This document shows positions 29,143 through 45,593 of a stretch of DNA of 64,000 nt, piece by piece (position 1 is the stretch's first letter; each line of letters starts with the position of its first letter). Under the pieces are notes generated by a model. It did not search any database. It was not told the DNA's origin and saw nothing but the letters and a program-made list of their open reading frames with translations. Source of the DNA: Acidimicrobiia bacterium (GTDB lineage: Bacteria; Actinomycetota; Acidimicrobiia; Spongiisociales; SHLN01); contig JBFKDW010000002.1 of NCBI GenBank assembly GCA_041619515.1, forward strand, positions 53,369-117,368, in the 5' to 3' direction. The position numbers were made by a program, and so were the translations under genes.

Positions 29143-29172
29143 TTCAGTGACCCCACGAGAAAGGCACTCATC

Positions 29173-31156: not shown

Positions 31157-31171
31157 GGTAGCCTCCCAGCC

Positions 31172-32020
31172 GTGCCTGATTTCGCCGTCAAGACGCCGCC
31201 GCAGAACACGACCTGGTCCGACATGCTCGAGATCTGGCGCGCCGCCGACGAGATCGAGGTGTTCTCCGAAGCCTGGAACTTCGACCATTTCTATCCTCTC
31301 CACCCGCCCATGGACGGTCCTTGCCTGGAGAGCTGGACGACGCTGGCCGCCCTCGCCCAGGCCACCAACCGCCTCCGGGTGGGCTCCATGGTCAACGGCA
31401 TGCACTACCGCCATCCGGCGGTCACCGCCAACATGGCCGCCAGCCTCGACATCATCTCGGGGGGACGCTTCAACCTCGGGCTGGGTGCCGGCTGGTTCGA
31501 GCCAGAGTCCCGGGCATACGGAATCCCGCTCGGAACGATGGCCGAGCGGATGGATCGCTTCGACGAGGGAGTCGAGGTCATCCACCGTCTCCTCACCCAA
31601 GAAACCACCACCTTCACCGGCCGGTTCTTCCAGCTGGCCGAGGCTCGTTGCGAGCCCAAGCCGATCCAACGGCCGAGGCCGCCGATCGTCATCGGCGGCA
31701 AGGGGGAGAAGCGCACCCTGCGCACGGTGGCCAGATACGCCGACTACTGGGATGCCATGTTTCACGAGGACACCGCCTCCTGGTTGCGGCTCGACACCAT
31801 CCTGTCGGAGCACTGCCGGGAAGTCGGTCGAGATCCGGCCGAGATCCGGCGGTCGGTTCACCTCCGCTGGGGTCTCGACGACGATCCCGGCCGGCTGGCC
31901 GACGAGGCGATGATGTTCATCGACGCCGGCGTCGATGTCGTCGTCTTCTCGATGCGGTCGCCCCAGTCGGCTTCGGCCGTTGAGCCCCTGGCGAACGCAA
32001 TCAGCGCCCGCGTCTCCTAG
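31172..32020 (+). CDS. Luciferase-like monooxygenase (LLM) class, probably F420-dependent oxidoreductase
   Basis: TIM-barrel LLM pattern (GRFNLGLGAGW, IVIGGKGEKRTLRTVARYAD). GTG start. Confidence 0.8.
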   Translation: MPDFAVKTPPQNTTWSDMLEIWRAADEIEVFSEAWNFDHFYPLHPPMDGPCLESWTTLAALAQATNRLRVGSMVNGMHYRHPAVTANMAASLDIISGGRFNLGLGAGWFEPESRAYGIPLGTMAERMDRFDEGVEVIHRLLTQETTTFTGRFFQLAEARCEPKPIQRPRPPIVIGGKGEKRTLRTVARYADYWDAMFHEDTASWLRLDTILSEHCREVGRDPAEIRRSVHLRWGLDDDPGRLADEAMMFIDAGVDVVVFSMRSPQSASAVEPLANAISARVS

Positions 32021-32296: not shown

Positions 32297-33613
32297 GTGA
32301 GCTCGAAGACACTGATCCGGGGCGGTTGTGTCCTGACCCTGGGCGTGAAGACCCCGAACTTCACCGAGGCCGACGTCCTCATAGAGGACGGCCGGGTGTC
32401 CGAGGTCGGTCCCGGCATCCGGGCGCGCGATGCCGATGTCGTCGACGCCACCGACACCATCGTCATGCCCGGCTTCGTCGACACGCACCGGCACGTCTGG
32501 AAGTCACTCCTCCGAAACCTCGGCAGGGTCGCCGAGGAGATCACCATCTCCCATTACCGGCCGGATGACATATACGCCGCCACCCTCATCGGCCTACTCG
32601 GTGCATTGGAAGCGGGAATCACAACGGTGGTCGATTGGGCCGATCTTCCCGTCGAGGAGAGCTACGCCGAAGCCGCCCTGCAAGCCCATTCCGACGCCGG
32701 ACTGCGGACCGTCTTCGTTCACTCGGCTCCCACCTGGGACGGCAGCCCGGCGGACATCGGTGCCAGCGCACGACGGCTCTCGGAAGGCCGCGAGCAGACC
32801 CCGGAGTCTCCCACCATCCTCGCCTTCGGCTCGGCCGATCTGAGCCGGAGCCGCATCGAGCAGGTGGTGGAAGAATGGACCCTCGCCCGTCAGCTGGGTC
32901 TGCGGATCCATGCCCATGCCGGCCTGGCGGCCACAGATGACGGCGTGGTCGCGAGCCTGGCCGAGCGGGGCCTGCTGGCGACCGACGTGACCCTGGTGCA
33001 TTGCTCGCACCTCGGTGAGGAGGACCTCGACGCAATCGCGTCCAGCGGCGCATCGATCTCTTCGGCGCCCTCCACCGAGATGGCGGGCGGGCTGGGGACG
33101 CCGCCGCTCCAGAAGTTCCTGGACCGCAAACTCCAGCCGGGCCTGGCCGTGGACGACGAGCAGGTGGCGCCGGGGGACATGTTCGCCCAGATGCGGGCCG
33201 CCAACTCCGTCCAGCACGCCGCCTACTTCGACCTCAAGCTGGCCGGCAAGGCGGGATTGCCCAACCTCCTGACCACCCGCGACGTCATCCGCTACGCCAC
33301 TCTGGAGGGAGCGAGGACGGTGGGTCTCGCCGACGTGACCGGATCCCTCGAGGCAGGGAAGCAGGCAGACATCATCGTCCTGCGCACCGATCGTCCCAAC
33401 ATCTACCCGATCAACGATCCGATCGGGGCCGTCGTCTGGGGGTTGGACACCTCGAACGTCGACTGGGTCTTCACCGGCGGCCGGGCTCTGATTCGCAACG
33501 GCGAGCCGGCGGCGGACGTCGACCGGGCTCGCGGCCTGGCGACGGCGGCCCATGGCCGCATCATGGCGGCCGGCGGCCTGCTGGCCGAAACCGGCACAGG
33601 AGAGAGCCTGTGA
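32297..33613 (+). CDS. Amidohydrolase (cytosine/guanine deaminase / SsnA / chlorohydrolase-like subfamily)
   Basis: GFVDTHRHVW HxH metal motif, 438 aa. GTG start. A long untranslated leader lies upstream. Confidence 0.8.
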   Translation: MSSKTLIRGGCVLTLGVKTPNFTEADVLIEDGRVSEVGPGIRARDADVVDATDTIVMPGFVDTHRHVWKSLLRNLGRVAEEITISHYRPDDIYAATLIGLLGALEAGITTVVDWADLPVEESYAEAALQAHSDAGLRTVFVHSAPTWDGSPADIGASARRLSEGREQTPESPTILAFGSADLSRSRIEQVVEEWTLARQLGLRIHAHAGLAATDDGVVASLAERGLLATDVTLVHCSHLGEEDLDAIASSGASISSAPSTEMAGGLGTPPLQKFLDRKLQPGLAVDDEQVAPGDMFAQMRAANSVQHAAYFDLKLAGKAGLPNLLTTRDVIRYATLEGARTVGLADVTGSLEAGKQADIIVLRTDRPNIYPINDPIGAVVWGLDTSNVDWVFTGGRALIRNGEPAADVDRARGLATAAHGRIMAAGGLLAETGTGESL

Positions 33614-34656
33614 CGACCACCCGGGCTCCGTCGTCGGCTCTCACCTCGTTTGTGGTTGCTTCCCGGTATATGCCGGTCTACCTGGCATTGACCCTGCTGG
33701 TGATCGTGGCGAAGATCTGGGCTCCGGCCACCCTGACGCGAGCCGGACTCACCTCCATCGCCCTGTTCGGCACCTTCCTGGCCATCACCGCTCTCGGCCA
33801 GATGCTGGTCATCATGACCGGCGGCATCGACCTCAGCGTGCCCGGCACGCTCACCTTGGGAGCGATCATCATGGTGGGGGTCGGCCGGCAAGCGGACGAT
33901 CGGATCTGGTTCGCTCTCCTCGCTGCGGTCGGATTCGCGGCTTTGGTCGGCCTCGTCAACGGCCTCCTCATCGGAGGGCTCAAGCTCAACCCCTTGATCG
34001 TCACGCTGGCCGTGGGCCAGGTCGTGACCGGGATCGTCAACCGCTACCACAAGACGTTCGCCATCCAGAGCTCGGTGCCCTCCGGGCTCCCGGAGTTCCT
34101 GAACGTCCGGTTCCTGGGGGTCTCGCGCATCTTCTGGATCGGGGTGGTCATCACCATCCTGCTCATCATCGGCTTTCGCTACACGACCGTGGGACGGAGG
34201 TTTCAGGCGGTCGGCGCCAATCCGGTGGCGGCGCTCGTGAGTGGCTTGCGGGTCAACCTGAACCAGATCGCTGCCTACGTGGTGGCGGCCATGCTGTATT
34301 CCATTGCCGGGGTGTTGATCGCCGCCCTCCTCCGCAACCCGGGCGTGACCATCGGAGCTCCCTATCTGCTGGGACCGATCGCCGCCGTCGTGATCGGTGG
34401 TGCCTCCCTGACCGGCGGCCTGGCCAGTCCGCTCTCAACCTGGGCGGCGGCGTTCTTCCTCGCCGGACTGAACCAGATGATGCGGGTGATGGGCCTGCCC
34501 ACCGCGCTCCAATTCGTCGTCTTCGGCCTGGTGATCATCGGCGGCATGCTGGTTTCGGGCGATCGGATCATCAAAGGTGTCGAGCAACTGCTCCGCGAAC
34601 GACGAAGACCGAGCCGCCTCGAGGGCGCCGCCGCCTCCGGCGACGGCGCCGGGTAG
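33610..34656 (+). CDS. CUT2-family (ribose/nucleoside-type) ABC transporter permease
   Basis: RbsC/AraH-like multi-TM protein. GTGA overlap with the amidohydrolase gene. Confidence 0.8.
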   Translation: MTTTRAPSSALTSFVVASRYMPVYLALTLLVIVAKIWAPATLTRAGLTSIALFGTFLAITALGQMLVIMTGGIDLSVPGTLTLGAIIMVGVGRQADDRIWFALLAAVGFAALVGLVNGLLIGGLKLNPLIVTLAVGQVVTGIVNRYHKTFAIQSSVPSGLPEFLNVRFLGVSRIFWIGVVITILLIIGFRYTTVGRRFQAVGANPVAALVSGLRVNLNQIAAYVVAAMLYSIAGVLIAALLRNPGVTIGAPYLLGPIAAVVIGGASLTGGLASPLSTWAAAFFLAGLNQMMRVMGLPTALQFVVFGLVIIGGMLVSGDRIIKGVEQLLRERRRPSRLEGAAASGDGAG

Positions 34657-34741
34657 GGCGCGACACCGGAGGCACCGATCAATCGACAAAACAGGAAGGC
34701 ACCAAAGACACGGGCGATCCCGCCCATGAGGAGAGAATGAC

Positions 34742-36091
34742 ATGAGACGAATCAGAATCATCAGCCTGATCGCCGCGCTGGCGCTCATTGGCGCCGCCTG
34801 CGGCGGTGACGACGGCGGATCCGACACGACGGCGACCAACGAAACAACGACGACCACAGCGGCGACCACCACGACTGCCGGCGACGGTGCTACGACCACC
34901 ACCGCCGGCGATGGCGGGGATCCCCTGGCGCAGTACGGCGAGAGCAGGGATGCCGATCCGGCCCTGATCGAGAAGGCAATGGGGCCGATCACACCGCCCA
35001 ACGATGCCGCTTGGGACATCATCCTGGCCTCGGTGGCGCGCGCCGATCAGGACCTAGATCAGGCAACGATCGACAAAGCACTGGAATGCTGGAACGCGCC
35101 CGAGTGTGACACCGGGAGCGGTGGCGACCTCATCATGGGATTCGCCGACGGTGGGGGACACCTCAACGTTTGGCGTGGGGTCACCCACATGGAGGCCATC
35201 CTGCAGGCGCTCACCTATCCCGAGATCGGCAAGATCATCTCCACGGAGGCACTGTGGAACGCGGATCCGGCCGTCCCGGCCAACGACATCAGGTTCCTCA
35301 TCCAGCGAGGTGCCGACTTCATAACCGGATATCCAGACGCAGGTGTGGCCATCGGCGATGCCATCAAGGAGGCCACCGCCGCCGGCATCCCGTACATTCC
35401 GTGGTCGGCAGGCTGGGTGGGACTTCCCGGCCAGGATGGAGCGCTCGTCCCGGGTGACGACTATCTCACCGTGGTCGGCGAGAACCTGTGTGAACTGGGC
35501 AACAGCATGGCCGCCGTCCTCAACGACAACATCGCGGAGGGCAAGGTGGGAGTGCTGGGCGGCACGCCCGGCAACGCCCTCTCCCTGGGATGGCAGCAGT
35601 GTGCGGTCCCGGCGCTGAACGACTCGCTCGAGTTGGTGGGTGAGCCGGCGGACACGTTCTGGGTGAACGATATTGCTCTGCAGGTGGTGCTCGGATGGCT
35701 GTCCACCGACCCGGACATCCGGGGCTACACCTACGAGTATTCCGACGGCATGAACACCGCCCTGCAGGCCTACGACCAGTTGGGGATTCCGGTGGAGAAC
35801 CTGACACTGGCGATGCGCACCGATGAGCAGACCCTGTTCTGTGATTGGGTGGAGCGCGACGAGCCGACCTACAACATCTGGTACTCGGCGGGAGGGAACT
35901 TCCAGTCCCGTGTCGCCGTCACGGCGGCGATGATGTCGCTCAAAGGGGCCGAGATTCCCACCCAGATCGACGTCCCGCACGTGATGCGTCAGGTCACCGC
36001 GGATGACTGCGATCCGAACCGGGCGACACCGGCCGTGTCGGGCACCTCACTCGTTCCGGACGAGGTGCTGACCCTGATGTTCGGCGGCTGA
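34742..36091 (+). CDS. ABC transporter substrate-binding lipoprotein (CUT2-associated, periplasmic binding protein type I)
   Basis: Signal peptide with lipobox LIGAAC and a Thr-rich linker. Sits between CUT2 permease and ATPase genes. Confidence 0.65.
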   Translation: MRRIRIISLIAALALIGAACGGDDGGSDTTATNETTTTTAATTTTAGDGATTTTAGDGGDPLAQYGESRDADPALIEKAMGPITPPNDAAWDIILASVARADQDLDQATIDKALECWNAPECDTGSGGDLIMGFADGGGHLNVWRGVTHMEAILQALTYPEIGKIISTEALWNADPAVPANDIRFLIQRGADFITGYPDAGVAIGDAIKEATAAGIPYIPWSAGWVGLPGQDGALVPGDDYLTVVGENLCELGNSMAAVLNDNIAEGKVGVLGGTPGNALSLGWQQCAVPALNDSLELVGEPADTFWVNDIALQVVLGWLSTDPDIRGYTYEYSDGMNTALQAYDQLGIPVENLTLAMRTDEQTLFCDWVERDEPTYNIWYSAGGNFQSRVAVTAAMMSLKGAEIPTQIDVPHVMRQVTADDCDPNRATPAVSGTSLVPDEVLTLMFGG

Positions 36092-37686
36092 TGAGCAACA
36101 GCAAGACCGTTGGAGAGTCGACGGCCGAGGACCTGGTCCTCGAACTGCGCGGTGTCTCCCGCCAGTTCGGGGCGGTGCGGGCGCTGACCAACGTCAGCTT
36201 CGACTGCCGGGCCGGGGAGGTTCACGCCCTCGTCGGCGAGAACGGCTCGGGCAAGTCGACTCTCCTCGGTATTGCCAGTGGGTTTGTCGACCCCGATCTG
36301 GGCGAGATCCGGATCGGGGGCAAACCCTTGCGAACCGACTCCCCGGCGCTGGCCCGCAAGCTCGGCTTGGCGATGGCCTATCAGGACCTGTCGCTGATTC
36401 AGGCCGAGCCGGTGAAGAACAACCTGTTCCTGGCCGCCCCGCCCGAGAAGCGGCCCCCTTACTGGAACCGGAAGCGGTGGGCGCGCAGGCTCCTCGGCGA
36501 GTTCGACCTCGACCTCGAGTTGTTCCCCGATTCCCCGGCAGCGTTCCTCACCCTCGCCGAGCGGCAGCTGTTCGAGGTCGCCAAGGCGCTCGTCTCCGAT
36601 CCCAAGGTGCTGCTCCTCGACGAGCCCACCACTGCCCTCGGCCCCGACGAGGTGGAGGATCTTCATCGCACCATCTCGGCCTGTCGCGATCGTGGTGTCG
36701 GGGTCGTCTACGTGAGCCACCGGCTCCCCGAGGTCCTGGAGATAGCCGATCGGATCACTGTGCTGCGGGACGGCGAGACCCGTGGCACATTCGATGCCGG
36801 GAAGACCACCGAGCACGAACTGGTCGACCTGATCGTCGGCCGGCCGTTCGAGGGAGCTTTCCCCCCGGCCACCCTTCCCGAAGGCGAGCGCCGTGAGGTG
36901 CTGGTCGTCGACGCGCTCCAGGGTCAATCCTTTGGCCCGGTCAGCTTCACTCTGCAGAGTGGAGAGGTGGTAGGGATCGCCGGTGCCGAAGGCAACGGGC
37001 AGCCGCAGCTCTTCGACACCCTCGCCGGGCGGACGCCTCCACGGGCCGGCCGCGTCACCTGCAACGGCAAGGAAATGACGCTGATATCCACCCACGAGGC
37101 AATCGGGGCGGGAGTCATGATGCTCCCGGGCGACCGCAAGCGGGAAGCGCTCATGACCGTTCTCGGCGTGAGAGTGAATGCGACTTTGCAGTCGATCCGC
37201 CAGTTCAGCGCCTTCAATTTCCTGCGGCGCCGGGCGGAACGGCGGGCGGTCGAGAATCTCGTCGAGGAGCTCGAAATCCGCACCCCGTCCCTGGAACAGC
37301 CCGTGGAGTTCCTCTCCGGGGGCAACCAGCAGAAGGTCTCCGTGTCGCGCACGTTCCTGAAGAAGCCCTCGGTGATTCTTGCCTACGAGCCCACTCAGGG
37401 CGTCGATGTCGGCGCTCGATTCGATATCTATCAGGCCCTGCGAGCGAGAAGCAACGAGGGGGCCACCATCCTGGTCAAATCCAGCGACCCGCTCGAGCTG
37501 GCCGGCCTGTGTGATCGGGTCCTGGTCTTGTCACGAGGCCAGATCATCGAGGAGATCCCCGGTGACGAGCTCACCGAGGTTCGGATCGTCGAGGCCATCG
37601 TCCGAGGTCCCGGGCTGTCCAAGGCCGGCCGATCGCCGCTCGGCGTCGCAATGCCGAAGGCTCCGACCGAAACGGATGCATCTTGA
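36091..37686 (+). CDS. CUT2-family ABC transporter ATP-binding protein (tandem duplicated ATPase, RbsA/MglA-like)
   Basis: Two nucleotide-binding domains. First Walker A is GENGSGKST. 531 aa. Confidence 0.85.
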   Translation: MSNSKTVGESTAEDLVLELRGVSRQFGAVRALTNVSFDCRAGEVHALVGENGSGKSTLLGIASGFVDPDLGEIRIGGKPLRTDSPALARKLGLAMAYQDLSLIQAEPVKNNLFLAAPPEKRPPYWNRKRWARRLLGEFDLDLELFPDSPAAFLTLAERQLFEVAKALVSDPKVLLLDEPTTALGPDEVEDLHRTISACRDRGVGVVYVSHRLPEVLEIADRITVLRDGETRGTFDAGKTTEHELVDLIVGRPFEGAFPPATLPEGERREVLVVDALQGQSFGPVSFTLQSGEVVGIAGAEGNGQPQLFDTLAGRTPPRAGRVTCNGKEMTLISTHEAIGAGVMMLPGDRKREALMTVLGVRVNATLQSIRQFSAFNFLRRRAERRAVENLVEELEIRTPSLEQPVEFLSGGNQQKVSVSRTFLKKPSVILAYEPTQGVDVGARFDIYQALRARSNEGATILVKSSDPLELAGLCDRVLVLSRGQIIEEIPGDELTEVRIVEAIVRGPGLSKAGRSPLGVAMPKAPTETDAS

Positions 37687-40154
37687 CGAGCGAATACACC
37701 GCACACGGAGCCATCGACCGAGCCCGTCAATTGGTCCGGAAGATCCTCCGTAACGCGCGCGATAAGAACAAGTGGCGGAAGGTGGTCAAAGTCCGGTTGT
37801 GGATGCCCATCGCGCTGCAGATGGTGCTCATCCTCGGCGTCCTCTGGTACACCAACACTCGCTTCGACGGATTCCTCAACGCCGCCAACCTCACCAGCGT
37901 CCTCATCATCGCCATTCCCCTGGCGATAGCGGCGTTTGCCCAAACCCACGCGCTCCTGGTCGGCTATCTGGACCTGTCGGTCGGAGCCATGATCAGCCTC
38001 GGGGTGGTGATCGCCTCATTCCTCATCGTTCCCGATTCATCCACACCGGAAATCCTCCTCGGCATCGGTGCCATCCTCCTGTGCGGGGCGGGCGTGGGAC
38101 TGGTCAACGCCACGCTGGTGCGCGGGGTGAAGATCCCATCGATCATCGCCACTCTGGCGACCTTGAGCATTCTCGACGGCATCTCCCTCACGCTGCGCGA
38201 GACGCCGAGCGGCACCATCGATCCGGACTTCGTCTCCTGGCTCAAGGCCAGTGTCGGGCCGGTTCCGGTTGCCTTCATCGCCGTGGCGGTGGGCGCAATC
38301 CTGCTCGACTACTGGCTCCATGCCAGCCGCTCCGGTCTCAAGGTCCGGGCCACCGGTTTCGACGAGCGATCGGCCAAGCGCAGCGGCGTCTGGACCAACT
38401 GGATACGCGTGCGCGCCCTGCTGCTGTCGGCCATGTTGGCTGCGATCGCCTCTTTCTTCGTCATGTCCCGGTCGCCGGTCGGAAACGCCCAGATCGGCTC
38501 CAGCTTCGCGCTCAACAGCATCACGGCAGCGGTCCTCGGTGGTGCCTCCTTCCTGGGCGGGCGGGCCACCTTCATTGGTGCACTGACTGCCTCTGTGCTT
38601 CTGGCGCTGATCATCACCGTTCTGCCGTTCCTCGGCCTCACCCCCGACCACGGCCTGATGATCATCGGCATTCTGGTGCTGCTCGGGATCATCCTCTTCC
38701 AGGTGGGCGACATCAAGGAGCTGGTGAAGCGAAATTTCCGACGAGCGCGGCGTCTGGTGCAGGGCAGCAACGTGGCAGCCCAGGCGCGCCTGCCGGAGTT
38801 GTATCCGGCGGGCAACGACTTCAGTGTGGTGCCCTCCGGGAGAAAGCTCATCCGGGGTGGCGTGGTGCTCTCCCTGGATCCGGACGTGGGGGATCTCTCC
38901 GAGGGTGACGTTCTCATCGAAGGGGACAAGATCGTCGCGGTCGGACCCGGCCTGGCAGCCGGCGACGCCGAGTTGATCGACGCGTCGGGGATGATCGTCA
39001 TGCCCGGATTCGTCGACAGCCACCGCCACATCTGGGAAGGCATCCTCCGCAACATCGGGACCGATGTTCCGCTCGAAGGCAGGACCAGCTACATCTCGTT
39101 CATCCTCCGCACGCTGGCGCCGGTGTACCGACCGGAGGACGTCTACGCCGGGAACATGGTTTCCGCCCTCGGTGCCATCGATGCGGGCGTCACCACCCTC
39201 CTCGATTGGTCGCATATTCAGTCCTCACCGAGCCACACCGATGCCGGGATCCAGGCCCTGCGGGATTCCGGCCTGCGAGCCGTGTTCGCCTACGGATTTC
39301 CGTGGTGGGGGAAATGGGAAGAGCGCCAGCCCAGTTGGTTCGTCAGGGCTGCCAGCGAACACTTCTCCAGCAAGGACCAGATGCTCACCCTGGCGCTGGC
39401 GGCACCCGGTCCCGAATTCACCGACTTCGAGGTGGCTCGTGATCATTGGAAGCTCGCCCGCGAGACCGGGGCGCGCATCACTGCTCATGTCGGGGTCGGA
39501 ACCTATGGCCTCGACGCCAAGATCCAACGGTTCGGCGAGGCCGGCCTCCTCGGCCCGGACACGACCTACATCCACTGCACGAGTCTCAACGACACCGAGA
39601 TCCAGATGGTTGTCGACACCGGCGGCACGGTTTCGCTGGCCTCTCCCGTGGAAATGATGATGGGTCACGGTATGCCGCCCATCCAGAAGTTCCTCGACCG
39701 GGGGCTCCGACCCAGTCTCAGCATCGACGTCGAAACCAACGTGCCGAGCGACATGTTCAATCAGATGAGGTCGGTCCTGGCGCTGCAGCGGGCGCTGGTA
39801 TCCGACGACGGGAAGCCGCCGGTAGCTCCCCGGGAGGTTTTGGGCTGGGCCACCGTTGAGGGGGCGCGTGCCAACGGTCTCGTGGACAAGGTCGGAAGCC
39901 TTACTCCCGGCAAGCAAGCCGACCTCATCATGCTGCGCTCCGATCGAATCAACGTCACTCCGCTCAATGACCCGGCCACGGCGGTGGTGGCGAGCATGGA
40001 CACCAGCAATGTGGACAGCGTCCTGATTGCGGGGAGGGTCATGAAACGACACGGGAAGCTTCTCCACGTCGATTGGCCCGCCGTGAGGCGGATGGCGCTC
40101 GAGTCCCGGGACTACGTCGTCGCCAAGTCGGGTTTCAAGCTCCCGAAGATCTGA
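37683..40154 (+). CDS. Fusion protein: CUT2 ABC permease (N-terminal, about 350 aa) plus amidohydrolase paralogous to 32297..33613 (C-terminal, about 440 aa). TTG start at 37683 or ATG at 37803
   Basis: Single uninterrupted 823-codon frame. Permease TM region ends near KRNFRRARRL. A linker of about 30 aa follows, then the amidohydrolase domain with GFVDSHRHIW. Confidence 0.7.
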   Translation: MTSEYTAHGAIDRARQLVRKILRNARDKNKWRKVVKVRLWMPIALQMVLILGVLWYTNTRFDGFLNAANLTSVLIIAIPLAIAAFAQTHALLVGYLDLSVGAMISLGVVIASFLIVPDSSTPEILLGIGAILLCGAGVGLVNATLVRGVKIPSIIATLATLSILDGISLTLRETPSGTIDPDFVSWLKASVGPVPVAFIAVAVGAILLDYWLHASRSGLKVRATGFDERSAKRSGVWTNWIRVRALLLSAMLAAIASFFVMSRSPVGNAQIGSSFALNSITAAVLGGASFLGGRATFIGALTASVLLALIITVLPFLGLTPDHGLMIIGILVLLGIILFQVGDIKELVKRNFRRARRLVQGSNVAAQARLPELYPAGNDFSVVPSGRKLIRGGVVLSLDPDVGDLSEGDVLIEGDKIVAVGPGLAAGDAELIDASGMIVMPGFVDSHRHIWEGILRNIGTDVPLEGRTSYISFILRTLAPVYRPEDVYAGNMVSALGAIDAGVTTLLDWSHIQSSPSHTDAGIQALRDSGLRAVFAYGFPWWGKWEERQPSWFVRAASEHFSSKDQMLTLALAAPGPEFTDFEVARDHWKLARETGARITAHVGVGTYGLDAKIQRFGEAGLLGPDTTYIHCTSLNDTEIQMVVDTGGTVSLASPVEMMMGHGMPPIQKFLDRGLRPSLSIDVETNVPSDMFNQMRSVLALQRALVSDDGKPPVAPREVLGWATVEGARANGLVDKVGSLTPGKQADLIMLRSDRINVTPLNDPATAVVASMDTSNVDSVLIAGRVMKRHGKLLHVDWPAVRRMALESRDYVVAKSGFKLPKI

Positions 40155-40167
40155 TCTTCGCCCGCTT

Positions 40168-41307
40168 CTAGCCGAGCTTCTCCCTGATCCAGGCGAACGA
40201 CGCCGGCCCCCACTCCGGCTGATACTTGAAGGCGCAATGGCCGGCGTCGGCGTACACACGGGCTTCCCGTCCCGTCGGCGGCCCATGCTCGAACATGAAG
40301 TAGATGTTGCCGATCGGCGCCAGGTGGTCGAGCTTGCCGTTGATCATGAGCACCGGCTGGGTGATGTTGTCGAGAACCCCGAGCTCCGACAAGGCCCACT
40401 TCGAGAAGACCTCCGCCTCCTTCTCCCGCGACCAGGCAGGGAATGAGGGCGGCCCCCCGGGCTCACCGAAGACGAACGTTGCCCGCTTGTTGCGCGCCTC
40501 GACGAAGGCATCGAGCTCTTCATCGGTCATGCGGTAGCCGAACGGATGGCCGGCAATGGCGACGACCGCCCGCACCTTTTCCGGGTACGTGCCCGCCAGT
40601 TGCATGACCGAATACCCGCCCCGGCTGATGCCGAAGGCGGCGATCCTGGCAGCGTCGACCTCAGGCCGTCCGGCCAGGAAATCGACGGCCGCCATCCATG
40701 CTTTCACCGAGTCGGGATCCCACGGGAACGGGTTCTCCCCGGTTCCCGGACCATCCATCACGAGCGACGCCAGGCCATGCTCGAGCGCAAGCTCCCCCGC
40801 CCAGCCCCGGTCTTCCTTGAACACGTCGGCGCCACACATGATGAGCACCGCCGGGGCGGGATCGTCGGCCCCCGCACCCTGTGGTGCTCGGAAGTGGGCC
40901 CTGATCGGTCGCCCGTCGCATTCGACCTCCACGACCTCCAAGGGCGGATCGAGATACCGGCAGGCCTTGCGATAGGCCTCGGCACACTGCGCGCTGATCT
41001 CGGCTTTGCGAGGCGTGATCTCCCCCGGGAATCGCCCGATGGCGTAGTAGGTCTTGGCCTGCAAGTACTCCCGGCGGGCGCCTTCCCCGTCTCCGGCCGC
41101 GTCGAGCCGATCACCCGCCTCTTCGTGACGGCGTCCGGCTGCCCGCCATACCGGAACCCACTTGTCATCGGTGGTTGCCTCCAGCGTCGCCACGATCGTC
41201 TCGAGCTCGGAAAGGTCGTCGATCATCGATAACCAGCGCCGGTAGAAGCCCCCGTGCTCGACGACGAACGGGTCTTCGCTGGGCGTGAAGCCGAGTGCGG
41301 TGCTCAT
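40168..41307 (-). CDS. Alpha/beta hydrolase (FrsA/dienelactone-hydrolase-like esterase)
   Basis: Nucleophile elbow GISRGG and a C-terminal His. 379 aa. Confidence 0.7.
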   Translation of the reverse strand: MSTALGFTPSEDPFVVEHGGFYRRWLSMIDDLSELETIVATLEATTDDKWVPVWRAAGRRHEEAGDRLDAAGDGEGARREYLQAKTYYAIGRFPGEITPRKAEISAQCAEAYRKACRYLDPPLEVVEVECDGRPIRAHFRAPQGAGADDPAPAVLIMCGADVFKEDRGWAGELALEHGLASLVMDGPGTGENPFPWDPDSVKAWMAAVDFLAGRPEVDAARIAAFGISRGGYSVMQLAGTYPEKVRAVVAIAGHPFGYRMTDEELDAFVEARNKRATFVFGEPGGPPSFPAWSREKEAEVFSKWALSELGVLDNITQPVLMINGKLDHLAPIGNIYFMFEHGPPTGREARVYADAGHCAFKYQPEWGPASFAWIREKLG

Positions 41308-42533
41308 GAAACCTCCCGTGAGCGCTGCGCCAGCCTACGCCCCCGTGTCGAGGGAGAAGCCGCCGCGGCCATCCGGGCGTCGAGCCCACGGTCGGGCTCG
41401 AGGATGTAGACACCGCCGTTGACCCGGTCGGTCACATAGACGAGGTGGTTCTCACCCACCCACACGTCGTTCACCTGAACCGCGGCTTGATCCGGTGGGC
41501 AGGCGGGAATGTACGAGGCGATTTCGACCGGGGCGACCGGATCGGCCAGGTCGTAGACGCGCAAGCCGGCATTGAAATACGTTGCGAACACCAGCTCGGT
41601 GCTGCGATAGCTGCCGGGGCGATTCTCGTGCAGGCAGTGCGCTCCGAACCGAAGCCCCCGATCGCAATAATCACCCACCGGCGGCGGACAGATTGCCACC
41701 ACCCGGGGATTCCGTTCGTCCGCAACGTCCACCACTCGCACCATGTGGGGGGGCCCCTCGCACCCATCCGTCGTGGCTTCGTCGGTCACCACGACGAGAT
41801 CCCGGCCGGCGAGGGGGAGGCACGTGTGGGTCTCGCCACCCTCATCCCAGTTGAGGTGCGCCACGACCGCCGGCTCTGTCACGTTGGCGATATCGAGAAT
41901 CACCAAGCCCCCGTCCCAGAGCCCGACGTAGGCGCGGTCGCCGGCGACCATGGCATGGTGGGTGCTCCAATTCTCACCGGCCGGCCAGGCCGGGGTTTCG
42001 CCGCCAGCCGTCCACTGTCCGGGCCACCACCACCGCCCCACCTCGGTCGGCTGCGACGGGTCGTCCAGATCGATGATGATCCAGATCCGGCCCGTGAAGC
42101 CGTCGGGTGTGGCCGAGAGATAGGCATACCGCCCTCCTTCGTACACGATCCGATGCACACCGCGACCCGTCGACGCCCAGAACCCCACCTGCCGAGGATC
42201 GAAGGGGTCCGACAGGTCGTAGACGGCGAGGCCGGCGGACCACGGCAGGTCGCTGCGAAATCGCTCGTGGTTGATGAGCAGGAGCCCGTCGGCCACCTGC
42301 ACCTTGTGCGTATGGCTGTTGGGGGGCGCCGGCCACTGTCGCACCACCTGCGGAGAGCTCGGGTCGGCCACATCGAGGATCGAGGTACCCATGCCGCTGG
42401 TCCCGAAGTGCCCGACGTAGAGCACGTCGCCCGTTCGCATGAGCTGCATGCCGTCGCCGAATCCGCCCAGGTCCGAGCTTCCGACGAGTCGAAATCCCTC
42501 TGCTTCTTCGCCGTGCATAGGGCTTGTTACCAC
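41304..42533 (-). CDS. LVIVD-repeat / beta-propeller protein (start GTG at 42533 or ATG at 42518)
   Basis: Repeated hydrophobic-VxD segments (YVTDRVNGGVYIL, LVVVTDE, MVRVVDVAD). Confidence 0.5.
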   Translation of the reverse strand: MVTSPMHGEEAEGFRLVGSSDLGGFGDGMQLMRTGDVLYVGHFGTSGMGTSILDVADPSSPQVVRQWPAPPNSHTHKVQVADGLLLINHERFRSDLPWSAGLAVYDLSDPFDPRQVGFWASTGRGVHRIVYEGGRYAYLSATPDGFTGRIWIIIDLDDPSQPTEVGRWWWPGQWTAGGETPAWPAGENWSTHHAMVAGDRAYVGLWDGGLVILDIANVTEPAVVAHLNWDEGGETHTCLPLAGRDLVVVTDEATTDGCEGPPHMVRVVDVADERNPRVVAICPPPVGDYCDRGLRFGAHCLHENRPGSYRSTELVFATYFNAGLRVYDLADPVAPVEIASYIPACPPDQAAVQVNDVWVGENHLVYVTDRVNGGVYILEPDRGLDARMAAAASPSTRGRRLAQRSREVS

Positions 42534-42637
42534 GCCGCTCGGTCCGCCGGAAACCGACGCCCTCCCCGCCCCGGCCGACGAACATGCCTGGCTTCCAATT
42601 GACAGGGCTGATGGTTTTCCGTAAGTTCACTCGGACG

Positions 42638-42651
42638 TGCAATCGTTTGCG
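42638..42651. promoter_or_regulatory. LacI-type operator TGCAATCGTTTGCG upstream of the peptide ABC operon
   Basis: Same motif family. Lies about 70 nt upstream of the SBP start in a divergent intergenic region. Confidence 0.45.
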
Positions 42652-42721
42652 AAGGAGACACGGCTCGAGCAGATCGGGCTACCGGCATTCGAGACGGCCG
42701 GTTGACAACGGGAGGACAAGC

Positions 42722-44494
42722 ATGATGCGACGACGTTTCCAGACGGTTGGAGGTGGCTTCCTCGCCCTCGTACTGGCCCTGGCACTGGTAGCTGCCGCCT
42801 GCTCGAGCGACGACACATCCGATACCACCGGCGCCGGCCAAGGCACCACCACCACCCAGGCTGGTGGCGGCAACGGGGACGACACGACCACCACCACCCA
42901 GGGCGAAACGCCCGGTGGAGTCAACAACCCCGACGTCTTCGTGCATGCCGCCGACGATGAGCCGACCACGCTCGACCCGGCCCAGGTCGAGCCCGGTGAG
43001 GGTGGCGAGACGGTGATCCTCCAGGTCTACGAGCGGCTGCTCGAAATCGGAAACAGCGGGCCCGATCCCGTCCCCTCACTGGCAACCGAGGTCCCCTCCG
43101 TCGAAAACGGCCTCATTTCGGCCGATGGATTGACGTTCACCTTCCCCCTCCGCGAGGGTGTCACATTCCATGACGGAACTCCCTTCACGGCCGACGACGT
43201 CCTGTTCTCCTGGGACCGCGTCATGACAATGGACCTGCCCGACGGTGCCGCCGGCGTGCTCGCCGACACAGTCGACAGCATGCGCGTGGTCGACGACCTC
43301 ACGTTCGAAGTCACCCTGCAGGAGCCCAACGCCGCCTTCCTCAACGCGGTTGTGCCGGCGATGGTCTCCTCCATCGTGAGCCAGGATGCGGTCGAAGCCA
43401 ACGGTGGCGTAGCGGCCGGGGAGTTCAACGAGTTCATGTCCGGCAACCCGGTCGGCACCGGACCGTATCAGTTCGTGGCTTGGAACCGGGGGGAGGATCT
43501 TCAGTTCGAGGTGTACGACGGATACTGGGGAACCCCCGCCAATCTCGATCTCCGGATCGAGATCGGGGCGAGTCCCGATATCCGGGTGCTCGGTCTCCGG
43601 GCCGGTGATTACGACACCATCGAAGCCGATCCTTCTTTCATCGGCGACGTCGAAGGGGCCGAAGGCGTGACCGTCGACGGCGAGGGCCTCACCGTCGAGC
43701 CGATTCACATCGGGTTCAACCTGAAGTTCAATCCCGAAGATCTTCCCGACAGCGACAACATTCCGGCCGGCTTCTTCAACGATCCGAGGGTGCGGCAGGC
43801 GTTCAACTACGCGTTCAACTACGACGCCTTCGTGAACAGCGCACTGGGTGGATATGGGGACTTCAACCCCCACTACATCCCGATCGGGATCTTCGGGTAC
43901 GACCCGACGGCGCCCGTCTACAACCAGCAGGACCTTGCGAAGGCCGAGGAGCTGTTTCGGGCAGCCGGGGTGTGGGATACCGGGTTCTCGATTTCGGTGG
44001 TAACCGAGGAAGCCAACCTGTTCGAGGTTGCGGCCCTGGTGCTGAAGGACTCGATCGACGATCTCAACAACCCCAACTTCGAGATCATCGTGGCGGCGGT
44101 AGCCGAGGCGGTGTTCGACGACGCCCATGCCTCCGATCCGGTCCCGTACGCCATGTGGGTCAAGAACGCAGACCCGTTTGCAGACCCGAGTGCCTACCTG
44201 GATTCGTACGCGCTGCCCGACGGCGAGTGGGGCGAGATCCACGACTTCCGGTCGGGATACCAGGATCCGGACCGGATTCAGTCCCTCATCGACAGCGCTC
44301 GCGTGGAGCTGGACCCGGACGCCCGCGCCGTGATCCTCGCCGAAGTGCAGCGGGAGCTGTTCGAGGATCCGATGTGGCTCATCGCCGCCCAGGAGGGTGT
44401 GGTCTCGGCCCGTCGCGATTGGGTGCAGGGCTACATCTCGAATCCGCTCTGGCCGCGGCCGAGCATCAAGTTCGCTCTGCTGGACAAGGGGTAA
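42722..44494 (+). CDS. ABC transporter substrate-binding lipoprotein, family 5 (peptide/nickel/opine DppA/OppA-like)
   Basis: SD GGGAGGA before the ATG at 42722. Signal peptide with lipobox VAAAC and a Thr/Gly linker. Large SBP_bac_5-like body. Confidence 0.8.
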   Translation: MMRRRFQTVGGGFLALVLALALVAAACSSDDTSDTTGAGQGTTTTQAGGGNGDDTTTTTQGETPGGVNNPDVFVHAADDEPTTLDPAQVEPGEGGETVILQVYERLLEIGNSGPDPVPSLATEVPSVENGLISADGLTFTFPLREGVTFHDGTPFTADDVLFSWDRVMTMDLPDGAAGVLADTVDSMRVVDDLTFEVTLQEPNAAFLNAVVPAMVSSIVSQDAVEANGGVAAGEFNEFMSGNPVGTGPYQFVAWNRGEDLQFEVYDGYWGTPANLDLRIEIGASPDIRVLGLRAGDYDTIEADPSFIGDVEGAEGVTVDGEGLTVEPIHIGFNLKFNPEDLPDSDNIPAGFFNDPRVRQAFNYAFNYDAFVNSALGGYGDFNPHYIPIGIFGYDPTAPVYNQQDLAKAEELFRAAGVWDTGFSISVVTEEANLFEVAALVLKDSIDDLNNPNFEIIVAAVAEAVFDDAHASDPVPYAMWVKNADPFADPSAYLDSYALPDGEWGEIHDFRSGYQDPDRIQSLIDSARVELDPDARAVILAEVQRELFEDPMWLIAAQEGVVSARRDWVQGYISNPLWPRPSIKFALLDKG

Positions 44495-44577
44495 CAAGGG
44501 CACAAGCTGCCCGACGCGGCCTCCGGTTCCCCGGGGGCCGCGTCGTAGCAGCCACGATCCGCTAAACAAGGCGAGCC

Positions 44578-45591
44578 ATGCAGATTCGGGACTACATCAT
44601 CCGGCGCCTCATGGTCCTACCGGTGCTCATCATCGGAGTATCCATCATCGTGTTCGCCCTCACCCGGGTCGGCGGAACTCCGATTGGTGTCTACCTGCAA
44701 ACCGGAATGACCCAGGAGGAGGTCGCTCAACTCGAGGAGCGCTATCGCCTCAACGACCCGCTACCGGTGCAGTACGTCTACTGGGCTTCGGGTGTCTTGA
44801 CGGGTGATCTCGGCTGGTCGGGAGTGGCTGCGGCTCCCGTGACCGAGGTATTCCTCCCCAAGCTGGCCGCCACCATGGAGTTGGCGGTCTCCTCTGCCAT
44901 CGTCGCCGTGGTCTTGGGCGTTGCGCTCGGAACGTTCGCCGGGGCGAGACGGAACAGGCTTCCGGACCACATCACGCGGATTTTCTCGATCAGCGGCGCC
45001 GCCATGCCCCTCTTCTGGTTCGCCATCCTGTTGTTGATTGTGTTCTGGGTGAACCTCGGCTGGTTTCCGATCGGCCGGAGCACGCCGGAGATCTTCGCCC
45101 GGATCGATCACCCAACCAACCTGTACACCGTCGACTCGCTCATCGCCGGTGATTTCGGAGCATTCAAGGATGCCATCTGGCACCTCATCCTGCCGGCGCT
45201 CACCCTCGGCTACGGCGCCACCGCCATCATCGCCCGCATGATGCGCTCATCGCTGGTCGAGGAGTTGCAGGAGGACTACGTCGATGCCGCCCGGGCCAAA
45301 GGTCTGCCGGAGCGCCTGGTGCTGCGTCGCCATGCACGGCGAAATGCCCTGATCCCGACGGTAACGGTGATCGGATTGAGCTTCGGGTTCCTGCTCCAGG
45401 GAAGCGTGGTGGCCGAGATCATCTTCCGCTGGCCGGGGCTGGGGCGATGGATGGCCGACTCGGTCCTGCGTGGTGACCAGGCAACGATCATGACCTACGT
45501 CCTGTTCACCTCCATCCTCTTCCTGGTCGTGAACCTGTTCGTCGACGTCATCTACGCCTACCTCGACCGCCGCGTCGTGCTGGGGGAATAG
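44578..45591 (+). CDS. Peptide-type ABC transporter permease (DppB/OppB-like)
   Basis: BPD_transp_1 core with N-terminal IRRLMVLPVLIIGVSIIVF. Confidence 0.85.
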   Translation: MQIRDYIIRRLMVLPVLIIGVSIIVFALTRVGGTPIGVYLQTGMTQEEVAQLEERYRLNDPLPVQYVYWASGVLTGDLGWSGVAAAPVTEVFLPKLAATMELAVSSAIVAVVLGVALGTFAGARRNRLPDHITRIFSISGAAMPLFWFAILLLIVFWVNLGWFPIGRSTPEIFARIDHPTNLYTVDSLIAGDFGAFKDAIWHLILPALTLGYGATAIIARMMRSSLVEELQEDYVDAARAKGLPERLVLRRHARRNALIPTVTVIGLSFGFLLQGSVVAEIIFRWPGLGRWMADSVLRGDQATIMTYVLFTSILFLVVNLFVDVIYAYLDRRVVLGE

Positions 45592-45593
45592 AC

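What the first reader, a model, noticed from the sequence alone, without database searches (positions are those of the whole stretch)
37683..40154. ABC transporter permease translationally fused to a cytosine-deaminase-like amidohydrolase
- A single 823-codon frame contains a complete CUT2 (RbsC-like) permease, a linker of about 30 aa (…KRNFRRARRLVQGSNVAAQARLPELYPAGNDFSVVPSGRK…) and a full amidohydrolase domain with the intact HxH motif GFVDSHRHIW.
- That domain is a paralog of the free-standing amidohydrolase encoded at 32297..33613 in the same operon.
- Fusing a membrane importer to a cytoplasmic hydrolase/deaminase would physically couple uptake to the first catabolic step (substrate channelling or trapping).
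- This is not a standard architecture for CUT2 systems.
- The operon order is also unusual: hydrolase, permease, SBP, ATPase, permease-hydrolase.
Basis: seen in the sequence. Interest (0 to 1): 0.7.

Follow-up and report, generated by a model that had tools for sequence, protein, structure and literature searches.

The report
ABC importer permease fused to amidohydrolase
In a group of uncultured soil Acidimicrobiia, one membrane subunit of a sugar-type ABC importer is joined in a single, well-conserved protein to a cytoplasmic metal-dependent hydrolase, so uptake of a still unknown nitrogen-containing nutrient is probably tied directly to its first breakdown step.

Summary
Window 37683..40154 (+) is one stop-free 823-codon gene. 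It encodes a 10-helix BPD_transp_2 (CUT2-type) permease, a 44-residue tail and linker of fixed length, and a complete Amidohydro_1 domain.

It is not a sequencing artefact. The same fusion is uninterrupted in 80 of 80 species-representative genomes retrieved and in more than 120 protein clusters (90% identity) at 77-100% identity. All carriers named to class level are Acidimicrobiia.

The fusion is narrowly distributed. Among the 150 best-scoring of 1.84 billion 50%-identity representatives, only one is a full-length fusion.

Orthologous unfused systems exist with the same order (permease, binding protein, ATPase, permease), the same regulator type and a free amidohydrolase.

Topology places the hydrolase in the cytoplasm. 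Its five metal ligands are invariant, and it is the most conserved part of the cassette. It lacks the catalytic Glu of the HxxE motif used by cytosine-deaminase and chlorohydrolase relatives, so "cytosine-deaminase-like" is only a fold label. The substrate is unknown.

Best reading: a transporter-tethered catabolic enzyme. Channelling itself is an inference. This is a new variant of known kinds. It is present in databases under automatic names, and I found no published description.

The parts
32297..33613 (+). Free-standing amidohydrolase paralog (438 aa), first gene of the cassette
   Evidence: Amidohydro_1 at 101.9 bits. PRK08204 at 376 bits, just under the 391 cut-off. 41% identical to the fused domain. 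HxH, H, H and D ligands are kept, but HAGL replaces HxxE. Present upstream on the same strand in related loci; median identity 56%.
33610..34656 (+). Permease subunit M1 (348 aa, BPD_transp_2)
   Evidence: Pfam 96.8 bits. 30% identical to the fused membrane domain. 48% identical to M1 of the unfused system in L090.
34742..36091 (+). Substrate-binding protein (449 aa): a probable lipoprotein with a Thr-rich N-terminal spacer followed by a Peripla_BP_4 domain
   Evidence: Peripla_BP_4 at 55.4 bits, cut-off 35.1. A profile of orthologs reaches only distant CUT2 sugar-binding proteins in the PDB; the best is 5dte at 63 bits. The single sequence finds no PDB hit.
36091..37686 (+). ATPase with two ABC_tran domains in one chain (531 aa, RbsA/AraG-like)
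   Evidence: ABC_tran matched in 2 stretches, 154.9 bits. AraG, XylG and RbsA models score 360-388 bits, all below their equivalog cut-offs. 57% identical to the L090 ATPase.
37683..40154 (+). Fused gene: permease M2 joined to an amidohydrolase (823 aa plus stop)
37683..37790 (+). N-terminal cytoplasmic extension rich in K/R (aa 1-36, 11 K/R)
   Evidence: Charge count. AF2 predicts a helix at aa 10-26. The extension is absent from the unfused M2 ortholog of L090.
37791..38708 (+). Membrane domain, 10 transmembrane helices (aa 37-342)
   Evidence: Hydropathy profile. AF2 helices: 35-60, 67-94, 99-114, 121-145, 153-170, 193-214, 238-263, 268-285, 293-317 and 321-359. The basic loop aa 209-242, between TM6 and TM7, carries 7 K/R. 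10 TMS is the commonest topology in the CUT2 family (PMC3654945).
38709..38768 (+). Native permease C-terminal tail helix (aa 343-362, DIKELVKRNFRRARRLVQGS)
   Evidence: It continues the TM10 helix to aa 359. D343, K345, E346, L347, K349, R350, N351, R356 and R357 are 99-100% conserved. An equivalent Arg-rich tail is present in unfused M2 (L090) and in M1.
38769..38840 (+). Junction linker proper (aa 363-386, NVAAQARLPELYPAGNDFSVVPSG)
   Evidence: No length variation in 81 sequences. P371, Y374, P375, G377, D379 and F380 are at least 91% conserved. It has the highest non-synonymous divergence but still a coding pattern. AF2 confidence is low.
38841..40151 (+). Cytoplasmic amidohydrolase domain (aa 387-823). 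Metal ligands: H447 and H449 (39021-39029), H602 (39486-39488), H631 (39573-39575), D682 (39726-39728)
   Evidence: PRK08204 at 526.7 bits. All five ligands are invariant in 81 of 81 sequences. HVGV replaces HxxE in 81 of 81. E684 is invariant. AF2 pLDDT is mostly above 90. Foldseek TM-score normalised to the target is 0.83-0.90 against AtzA, MTA/adenosine deaminases, isocytosine deaminase and TrzN. Median identity across species is 83%, the highest in the cassette.

Best explanation
The gene encodes a genuine bifunctional polypeptide. It is the second membrane subunit (M2) of a heterodimeric, binding-protein-dependent CUT2-type ABC importer, and its cytoplasmic C-terminal tail continues into a catalytically competent, mononuclear-metal amidohydrolase.

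**The complex.** A lipoprotein binding protein delivers a polar solute, probably nitrogen-containing and sugar-like or heterocyclic. The other parts are M1, M2 and a tandem-domain ATPase.

**The proposed step.** The tethered hydrolase sits beside the ATPase at the cytoplasmic exit. It hydrolyses a C-N bond of the incoming solute. This keeps the free intracellular substrate low (metabolic trapping) and fixes a 1:1 ratio of enzyme to transporter at the membrane. The free paralog encoded first in the operon either performs the next hydrolytic step or pairs with the tethered domain as its oligomer partner.

**Shown here:** the fusion, its conservation, the cytoplasmic location, the intact metal site, and the repeated genomic linkage of this hydrolase subfamily with this transporter lineage.

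**Inferred:** that the enzyme acts on the imported solute, that proximity gives a kinetic advantage, the role of the paralog, and the chemistry. The chemistry is not a canonical HxxE-type deamination; the invariant E684 next to the beta-8 Asp may supply the missing acid/base.
For: **The fusion is real and under selection.**
- 80 of 80 species loci are uninterrupted.
- More than 120 90%-identity clusters carry both domains.
- The linker has a fixed length and invariant residues and a coding substitution pattern.

**The hydrolase is cytoplasmic.**
- The N-terminus carries 11 K/R and the tail is Arg-rich.
- AF2 predicts 10 TM helices.
- 10 TMS is the modal topology of the CUT2 family (PMC3654945).

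**The hydrolase looks catalytically competent.**
- H447, H449, H602, H631 and D682 are invariant.
- It is the most conserved component: median identity 83%, against 80% for the ATPase and 56% for the free paralog.
- It has the lowest non-synonymous divergence.

**Hydrolase and transporter are functionally linked.**
- Unfused orthologous systems in L090/L091 and L092 keep the same hydrolase subfamily beside the same transporter (M1, binding protein, ATPase, M2) and the same XRE-cupin regulator type.
- L006 pairs a 56%-identical hydrolase with a Peripla_BP_4 binding protein and an ATPase.

**Precedent.** A cytoplasmic enzyme domain on an ABC importer chain that processes the cargo is known from the siderophore interaction domain of IrtA (PMC11779899).
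Against: - No substrate is known. The binding protein resembles sugar binders only distantly, and the neighbouring genes give no equivalog-level pathway.
- No experiment or structure shows that the hydrolase domain docks near the translocation pathway. The AF2 linker is low-confidence, and the model is a monomer.
- Unfused relatives evidently work without the tether, so fusion is not required for the pathway.
- Lack of the HxxE Glu leaves the reaction type open.
- About 18 of 150 subfamily representatives carry Tat-like signals. The subfamily is therefore not intrinsically a cytoplasmic post-import enzyme.
Confidence: 0.62

Rival explanations
1. The fusion is a tether with no kinetic role. The stop codon between adjacent, translationally coupled genes was lost and the fusion became fixed in one clade. 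The hydrolase then works as an ordinary cytoplasmic enzyme that happens to be membrane-anchored. The only benefit is co-expression and stoichiometry, without channelling.
For: Genes in this cassette abut or overlap. A different fusion, ATPase joined to M2 (831 aa), occurs in the related L092 system, so fusions arise readily in this lineage. Unfused orthologs exist. The fusion is confined to a single 50%-identity cluster.
Against: The junction has had no indel in 81 sequences and carries near-invariant residues (P371, Y374, P375, G377, D379, F380). The tethered domain is much more constrained than the free paralog, 83% against 56% median identity. A clade-specific basic N-terminal extension appeared together with the fusion. 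The fusion has been retained in at least 80 species.
Confidence: 0.22
2. The C-terminal domain is mainly a regulatory sensor. It binds the substrate or product in the cytoplasm and throttles transport (trans-inhibition), as the C-terminal regulatory domains of MetN, ModC and MalK or the nitrate-binding domain of CmpC do.
For: Regulatory ligand-binding domains appended to ABC importer subunits are well known (own knowledge; CmpABCD, PMC13287603, listed). The canonical catalytic Glu of HxxE is missing. A free paralog is available to do the catalysis.
Against: All five metal ligands and many pocket residues are invariant. The free hydrolases of the whole subfamily also lack HxxE, so its absence is a family trait and not a sign of degeneration. 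In unfused systems the ortholog of the fused domain is the only hydrolase present. Known regulatory domains sit on the ATPase, not on the permease.
Confidence: 0.08
3. The fusion is an artefact: a missed stop codon, a frameshift or a chimeric assembly has joined two separate genes.
For: None was found. Only long-read MAG L073 shows frameshifts, and it still holds an intact fused copy.
Against: The identical protein was seen on 10 contigs; the three read come from three separate sequencing runs. All 80 species loci give one in-frame HSP. More than 120 clusters come from NCBI, JGI, ENA and Logan.
Confidence: 0.01
4. The hydrolase domain is extracytoplasmic and pre-processes the solute before uptake, like the Tat-exported members of the subfamily.
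For: About 18 of 150 subfamily representatives carry twin-arginine-type signal peptides.
Against: An even number (10) of TM helices follows a strongly basic N-terminus. Four helices lie between the basic loop at aa 209-242 and the tail. The tail is Arg-rich and is shared with unfused permeases.
Confidence: 0.02

Closest known systems
CUT2-family ABC importers (TC 3.A.1.2; RbsABC, AraFGH, XylFGH, LsrABCD)
   Same: It has BPD_transp_2 permeases with about 10 TM helices, a heterodimeric M1/M2 pair as in LsrCD, one ATPase chain with two ABC domains, and a Peripla_BP_4 binding protein.
   Different: No component reaches an equivalog cut-off. M2 carries a 437-aa enzyme at its C-terminus and a 36-aa basic N-terminal extension. 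The binding protein is very divergent, with no single-sequence PDB hit. Two amidohydrolases are encoded in the operon. The substrate is probably not a plain monosaccharide.
Amidohydrolase superfamily, chlorohydrolase/deaminase group (AtzA, TrzN, MTA/SAH and adenosine deaminases, 8-oxoguanine, isocytosine and guanine deaminases); NCBIfam subfamily PRK08204 ('hypothetical protein')
   Same: It shares the TIM-barrel fold: target-normalised TM-score 0.83-0.90 and rmsd 2.5-3.2 A against the closest relatives (AtzA, the MTA/adenosine deaminases, isocytosine deaminase, 3hpa, TrzN). The HxH, H, H, D mononuclear metal site is present. PRK08204 scores above its cut-off.
   Different: Identity is only 20-24%. 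The Glu of HxxE that these enzymes use (for example E241 of TrzN) is replaced by Val or Leu. An invariant DVE motif follows beta-8. I know of no characterised member of PRK08204, and a literature search for the name found nothing.
IrtAB of mycobacteria: the siderophore interaction domain fused to the IrtA chain
   Same: A cytoplasmic enzyme domain on an ABC importer polypeptide chemically processes the imported cargo (PMC11779899).
   Different: IrtAB has an exporter-type fold with the membrane domain and ATPase in one chain. Its enzyme domain is N-terminal and is a flavin reductase, and it has no binding protein. Here the importer is a binding-protein-dependent CUT2 system, and the enzyme is a C-terminal hydrolase on a stand-alone permease.
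Other transporter-enzyme fusions and 'transport metabolons' (SulP-carbonic anhydrase fusions, LplT-Aas, PTS group translocation) - from own knowledge
   Same: A transporter is physically coupled to the first metabolic enzyme that acts on its substrate.
   Different: Those cases involve secondary carriers or the PTS, and different chemistry. None is an ABC importer permease joined to an amidohydrolase.
Unfused orthologous systems (L090/L091, GCA_035643535.1; L092, GCA_034663705.1)
   Same: Orthology holds component by component: M1 48%, binding protein 37%, ATPase 57%, M2 41%, hydrolase 48% identity. The M1, binding protein, ATPase, M2 order and the XRE-cupin regulator are the same.
   Different: The hydrolase is a separate, divergently transcribed gene, and there is only one of them. 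M2 ends after the Arg-rich tail (332 aa). In L092, M2 is instead fused to the ATPase.

Membership tests
CUT2-type ABC importer permease (Pfam BPD_transp_2) | Match to the BPD_transp_2 model above the gathering score | tested here: met
   84.5 bits against a cut-off of 26.8, covering aa 70-334 and profile positions 2-267 of 269.
CUT2-type ABC importer permease (Pfam BPD_transp_2) | About 10 transmembrane helices with both termini cytoplasmic | tested here: met
   Hydropathy and charge bias. AF2 predicts 10 TM helices. 10 is the modal number for the family (PMC3654945). This is a prediction only, with no experimental topology.
CUT2-type ABC importer (whole system) | Partners: a tandem-ABC ATPase in one chain, a Peripla_BP_4-type binding protein and a second permease | tested here: met
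   The cassette is conserved in related loci.
CUT2-type ABC importer (whole system) | Monosaccharide (or AI-2 or nucleoside) substrate | not testable with these tools
   No equivalog-level hit for any component. The binding-protein profile reaches sugar binders at 63 bits or less.
Amidohydrolase superfamily (Pfam Amidohydro_1), NCBIfam PRK08204 subfamily | Model matches above the curated cut-offs | tested here: met
   Amidohydro_1 at 104.5 bits against 25. PRK08204 at 526.7 bits against 391 for the fused domain. The free paralog scores 376.4, just below the cut-off.
Amidohydrolase superfamily (mononuclear subtype) | HxH (beta-1), His (beta-5), His (beta-6) and Asp (beta-8) metal ligands | tested here: met
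   H447, H449, H602, H631 and D682 align with the ligands of 4f0r, 3hpa and 7ww2 and are invariant in 81 of 81 sequences.
Cytosine-deaminase/chlorohydrolase-type deaminases (CodA, GuaD, MtaD, AtzA, TrzN) | Catalytic Glu three residues after the beta-5 His (HxxE) | tested here: not met
   HVGV in 81 of 81 fused proteins. HAGL in the free paralog. V605 aligns with the Glu of all three best PDB hits.
Cytosine-deaminase/chlorohydrolase-type deaminases | Equivalog-level sequence match to a characterised deaminase | tested here: not met
   The best equivalog models score 159-161 bits against cut-offs of 522-609. Identity to PDB entries is 20-24%.
Transporter-enzyme fusion that processes the imported cargo (functional class, e.g. 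IrtA SID) | The enzyme domain lies on the cytoplasmic side of the same polypeptide as the membrane domain | tested here: met
   (predicted topology).
Transporter-enzyme fusion that processes the imported cargo (functional class) | The enzyme acts on the transported solute | not testable with these tools
   Only genomic association supports this. The same hydrolase subfamily sits next to the same transporter lineage in unfused form.

The most novel reading that the evidence does not exclude
The tethered hydrolase and the free paralog form a hetero-oligomer that docks on the ATPase and membrane-domain assembly. The importer would then work as an obligatory import-and-hydrolyse machine (vectorial hydrolysis, a group-translocation-like mode for an ABC importer) for an unrecognised class of soil nitrogen compound. 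It would use a non-HxxE catalytic mechanism in an uncharacterised amidohydrolase subfamily (PRK08204), and transport might be gated by catalysis.
Probability: 0.15. Interest if true: 0.8.

Novelty: new variant of a known kind. Interest (0 to 1): 0.5.

Why it matters
Binding-protein-dependent ABC importers are normally thought to release their cargo into the bulk cytoplasm. Here a catabolic enzyme has been welded to the permease and kept under strong purifying selection across at least 80 species. This is a natural test case for whether ABC import can be physically coupled to metabolism (trapping or channelling).

Unfused orthologs are available as built-in controls. The case also marks an uncharacterised amidohydrolase subfamily that lacks the canonical HxxE acid/base. 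It points to an unknown nitrogen-containing substrate used by abundant, uncultured soil Acidimicrobiia.

The practical value is moderate. The organisms are uncultured and the substrate is unknown, so everything beyond the architecture needs heterologous work.

Tried and rejected
**Artefact hypothesis.** Rejected.

**Extracytoplasmic location.** I considered this because some subfamily members carry Tat signals. I rejected it on topology.

**Substrate identification.** No approach gave an answer:
- NCBIfam gave no equivalog for any cassette protein.
- The binding protein alone has no PDB sequence relative. Its profile reaches only distant sugar binders.
- Recurrent neighbours are an M24 creatinase/prolidase-like hydrolase, E1 alpha and beta, a bicupin, an SDR, a 3-hydroxyisobutyrate-dehydrogenase-like enzyme and an XRE-cupin regulator. 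None gave an equivalog-level pathway.
- The genes immediately flanking the cassette in the window are not conserved in other loci.

**Solved structure for the membrane domain.** None was found by sequence. No membrane-domain match appeared among the 50 best Foldseek hits.

**Literature.** Searches for a described permease-amidohydrolase fusion and for PRK08204 found nothing relevant.

**Promoter and terminator scan.** Uninformative in this high-GC genome.

**Searches that could not be run.**

**Internal start site.** No conserved Met occurs at aa 363-390, and V383 is not conserved. No convincing Shine-Dalgarno sequence is visible.

**Gene caller caveat.** My own crude GC3-based gene caller sometimes picked antisense ORFs. 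I therefore re-checked cassette conservation by tblastn. The apparently missing ATPase in 18 loci in that call was most likely an artefact of my coordinate filter.

Full report
**1. Observation**

The window is 66% G+C. The region 32297-40154 holds five co-directional genes with typical coding GC3 values of 0.82-0.87:

| Coordinates | Product | Length |
|---|---|---|
| 32297-33613 | amidohydrolase | 438 aa |
| 33610-34656 | BPD_transp_2 permease M1 | 348 aa |
| 34742-36091 | Peripla_BP_4 binding protein | 449 aa |
| 36091-37686 | ATPase with two ABC domains | 531 aa |
| 37683-40154 | fused permease-amidohydrolase | 823 aa |

- Three of the four gene junctions abut or overlap. An 85-nt gap precedes the binding-protein gene.
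- The 823-aa product carries BPD_transp_2 at aa 70-334 and Amidohydro_1 at aa 438-786 in one frame.
- The hydrolase part matches NCBIfam subfamily PRK08204 over aa 387-817, at 526.7 bits against a cut-off of 391.
- The free hydrolase is a 41%-identical paralog. M1 is 30% identical to the fused membrane domain.

**2. Not an artefact**

- The identical 823-aa protein was seen on 10 contigs. The three read come from three different sequencing runs.
- The word-indexed protein search returned more than 120 clusters (90% identity) of 783-828 aa. All carry both Pfam domains, at 77-100% identity, and come from NCBI, JGI, ENA and Logan. Those that are named are called "Acidimicrobiia bacterium".
- A scan of one genome per GTDB species found 359 related stretches. 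The best 80 are 80 different MAGs, mostly labelled Acidimicrobiia or Actinomycetota and, by isolate name, largely from soil surveys.
- In 80 of 80 of these loci, a single tblastn HSP crosses both domains in one frame.
- Across 81 sequences the stretch between TM10 and the hydrolase has no indel.
- The codons of that stretch differ most at third positions: 0.55, against 0.33 at first and 0.26 at second positions. It is translated sequence.

**3. How widespread the fusion is**

- An exhaustive phmmer search covered 1.84 billion representatives of 50%-identity clusters. Among its 150 best hits it found exactly one full-length fused representative (P0121, 822 aa, 72% identity).
- The other 149 hits are free amidohydrolases of 37-58% identity, or fragments, some of them frameshifted.
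- The fusion is therefore one event in one clade. It is abundant there but absent from the rest of the subfamily as far as this search can see.
- Limitation: independent fusions involving much more distant hydrolases would fall below the listed hits.

**4. Unfused relatives**

The closest free homologs were traced to their contigs.

- **L090/L091.** These loci carry M1 (344 aa), a binding protein, an ATPase and M2 (332 aa) in the same order. This unit is transcribed divergently from a free hydrolase followed by an SDR gene. An XRE-cupin regulator and E1/E2 genes lie alongside.
- **Component-by-component identities to the window**:

| L090 component | Identity to window counterpart |
|---|---|
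| M1 | 48% |
| Binding protein | 37% |
| ATPase | 57% |
| M2 vs fused membrane domain | 41% |
| Hydrolase vs fused domain | 48% |
| Hydrolase vs free paralog | 37% |

- **L092.** It has the same layout and regulator, but there M2 is fused to the ATPase in an 831-aa product.
- **L006.** It pairs a 56%-identical hydrolase with a GntR regulator, a glyoxalase, a Peripla_BP_4 binding protein and an ATPase.

Three things follow:
- This hydrolase subfamily and this transporter lineage are repeatedly linked. This is the main evidence that the enzyme acts on the transported solute.
- The "odd" gene order is a lineage trait.
- The fused domain is the ortholog of the single, primary hydrolase of unfused systems. 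The free first-gene paralog is the extra, faster-evolving copy.

**5. Anatomy and topology**

- Hydropathy and charge analysis shows a basic N-terminus (11 K/R in 36 aa). A basic loop at aa 209-242 lies between TM6 and TM7, and the tail after the last helix is Arg-rich.
- The AF2 model was built from a 67-row alignment. Mean pLDDT is 76.5: above 90 for the hydrolase and 45-85 for the membrane part.
- The model gives 10 TM helices. The last helix (aa 321-359) runs on into the cytoplasm, followed by a low-confidence stretch to about aa 386.
- Ten TMS is the modal topology for CUT2 permeases (PMC3654945). With N-in and 10 helices, the hydrolase is cytoplasmic.
- The unfused M2 and M1 proteins end with an equivalent Arg-rich helix. 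So aa 343-362 are the native permease tail, and only about 24 residues (aa 363-386) form the junction.
- The junction has a fixed length and contains near-invariant P371, Y374, P375, G377, D379 and F380.
- The fused protein also has a 36-aa basic N-terminal extension that the unfused M2 lacks.

**6. The enzyme**

- Foldseek places the domain with AtzA, TrzN, the MTA/adenosine deaminases and the isocytosine, 8-oxoguanine and guanine deaminases. For the closest of these (AtzA, MTA/adenosine deaminases, isocytosine deaminase, 3hpa, TrzN) the target-normalised TM-score is 0.83-0.90 at 20-24% identity. The sequence hits agree.
- The metal ligands H447, H449, H602, H631 and D682 align with those of the solved enzymes and are invariant in 81 of 81 sequences.
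- The Glu of the HxxE motif aligns with V605 (HVGV, 81 of 81). In the free paralog it aligns with Leu (HAGL). Free subfamily members also lack it.
- An invariant Glu two residues after the beta-8 Asp (D682-V-E684) is common in the subfamily and present in the paralog. Its role as a substitute acid/base is my inference.
- The name "cytosine-deaminase-like" is therefore a fold statement, not a functional one.
- About 18 of 150 subfamily representatives carry Tat-type signals.
- Within the 80 species, the tethered domain is the most conserved component:

| Component | Median identity to window |
|---|---|
| Fused hydrolase domain | 83% |
| ATPase | 80% |
| M1 | 72% |
| Fused membrane domain | 70% |
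| Binding protein | 64% |
| Free paralog | 56% |

**7. Context and substrate**

- The five-gene cassette recurs in the related loci.
- Recurrent but not universal neighbours are an M24 creatinase/prolidase-like hydrolase, E1 alpha and beta, a bicupin, an SDR, a 3-hydroxyisobutyrate-dehydrogenase-like enzyme and an XRE-cupin regulator.
- None of these reaches an equivalog cut-off.
- The binding protein is a very divergent sugar-type binder.
- I can only say that the solute is probably polar and nitrogen-containing, and that several C-N hydrolases are involved.

**8. Interpretation**

- **Best explanation (about 0.6).** This is a transporter-tethered catabolic hydrolase that acts on the imported solute at the cytoplasmic face. 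The free paralog is either the next-step enzyme or an oligomer partner. Relatives in this fold group are oligomeric, for example the hexameric AtzA (4v1x).
- **Rivals.** A fusion without a kinetic role (about 0.2), a regulatory sensor (below 0.1), an extracytoplasmic domain (about 0.02) and an artefact (about 0.01).
- **Closest mechanistic precedent.** The cytoplasmic siderophore interaction domain fused to IrtA reduces the imported mycobactin (PMC11779899). Other transporter-enzyme fusions, such as SulP-carbonic anhydrase, are cited from my own knowledge.
- **Literature.** No paper describing this permease-amidohydrolase fusion or the PRK08204 subfamily was found.
- **Database status.** The proteins are in public databases under automatic names such as "amidohydrolase family protein". 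JGI uses a double name that already reflects both domains.

**9. Verdict**

- The feature is real, conserved and unusual, but clade-restricted, of unknown substrate and mechanistically untested.
- It is a new variant of known kinds: a CUT2 importer plus an amidohydrolase, joined as a transporter-enzyme fusion.
- Interest is about 0.5.

Noticed in passing
L092 1391-3886 (-), GCA_034663705.1 contig JAXDJA010000323.1: A related system with an unfused hydrolase encodes the ATPase and permease M2 as one 831-aa product (two ABC_tran domains plus BPD_transp_2), next to a Lyase_1/ADSL_C gene. This is a different fusion in the same transporter lineage.
   Followed up: partly
Proteins P0131, P0133, P0142, P0144, P0153, P0166, P0169, P0174, P0177, P0188, P0199, P0205, P0232, P0235, P0246, P0257, P0258, P0262: About 18 of the 150 best 50%-cluster representatives of this amidohydrolase subfamily carry N-terminal twin-arginine (Tat-like) signal peptides. 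The same subfamily therefore occurs free in the cytoplasm, exported, and tethered to a transporter.
   Followed up: partly
L073 5801-8250 and 8984-11425 (MAG MFD05567.bin.2.20): A second copy of the fused gene, with multiple frameshifts, lies directly upstream of an intact copy. The rest of the cassette is also broken into frameshifted pieces. This could be long-read assembly error or a decaying tandem duplication.
   Followed up: partly
window 37683-37790: The fused protein has a 36-aa N-terminal extension rich in K/R (AF2 predicts a helix at aa 10-26). The unfused M2 ortholog of L090 lacks it, so it seems to have appeared together with the fusion.
   Followed up: partly
window 34742-35100: The binding protein begins with a lipoprotein-like signal and a long Thr-rich low-complexity spacer, which produces a spurious 'New_glue' Pfam hit. 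The same kind of spacer occurs in the SBP_bac_5 protein at 42524-44494.
   Followed up: no
window 26941-27696; 28075-32020: A creatininase-family gene (PF02633) lies upstream of the cassette. It is followed by GFO/IDH/MocA and NAD_binding_2 oxidoreductases, an ORF with no Pfam hit (30106-31161) and a luciferase-like monooxygenase. None of these is conserved next to the cassette in other genomes.
   Followed up: partly
window 40168-46520: Downstream of the cassette lie an alpha/beta hydrolase and an LVIVD-repeat protein on the minus strand, then an Opp/Dpp-type ABC system (SBP_bac_5 plus two BPD_transp_1 permeases). They are unrelated to the cassette and not syntenic elsewhere.
   Followed up: no
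L009, L042, L062, L084 and other loci, upstream of the cassette; L018, L033, L040, L080 downstream: An M24 (creatinase/prolidase/DddP-like) hydrolase and TPP-dependent E1 alpha and beta genes sit next to the cassette in about 20 of 80 species. They are often joined by a bicupin, an SDR and a 3-hydroxyisobutyrate-dehydrogenase-like gene. This may be the rest of the pathway.
   Followed up: partly
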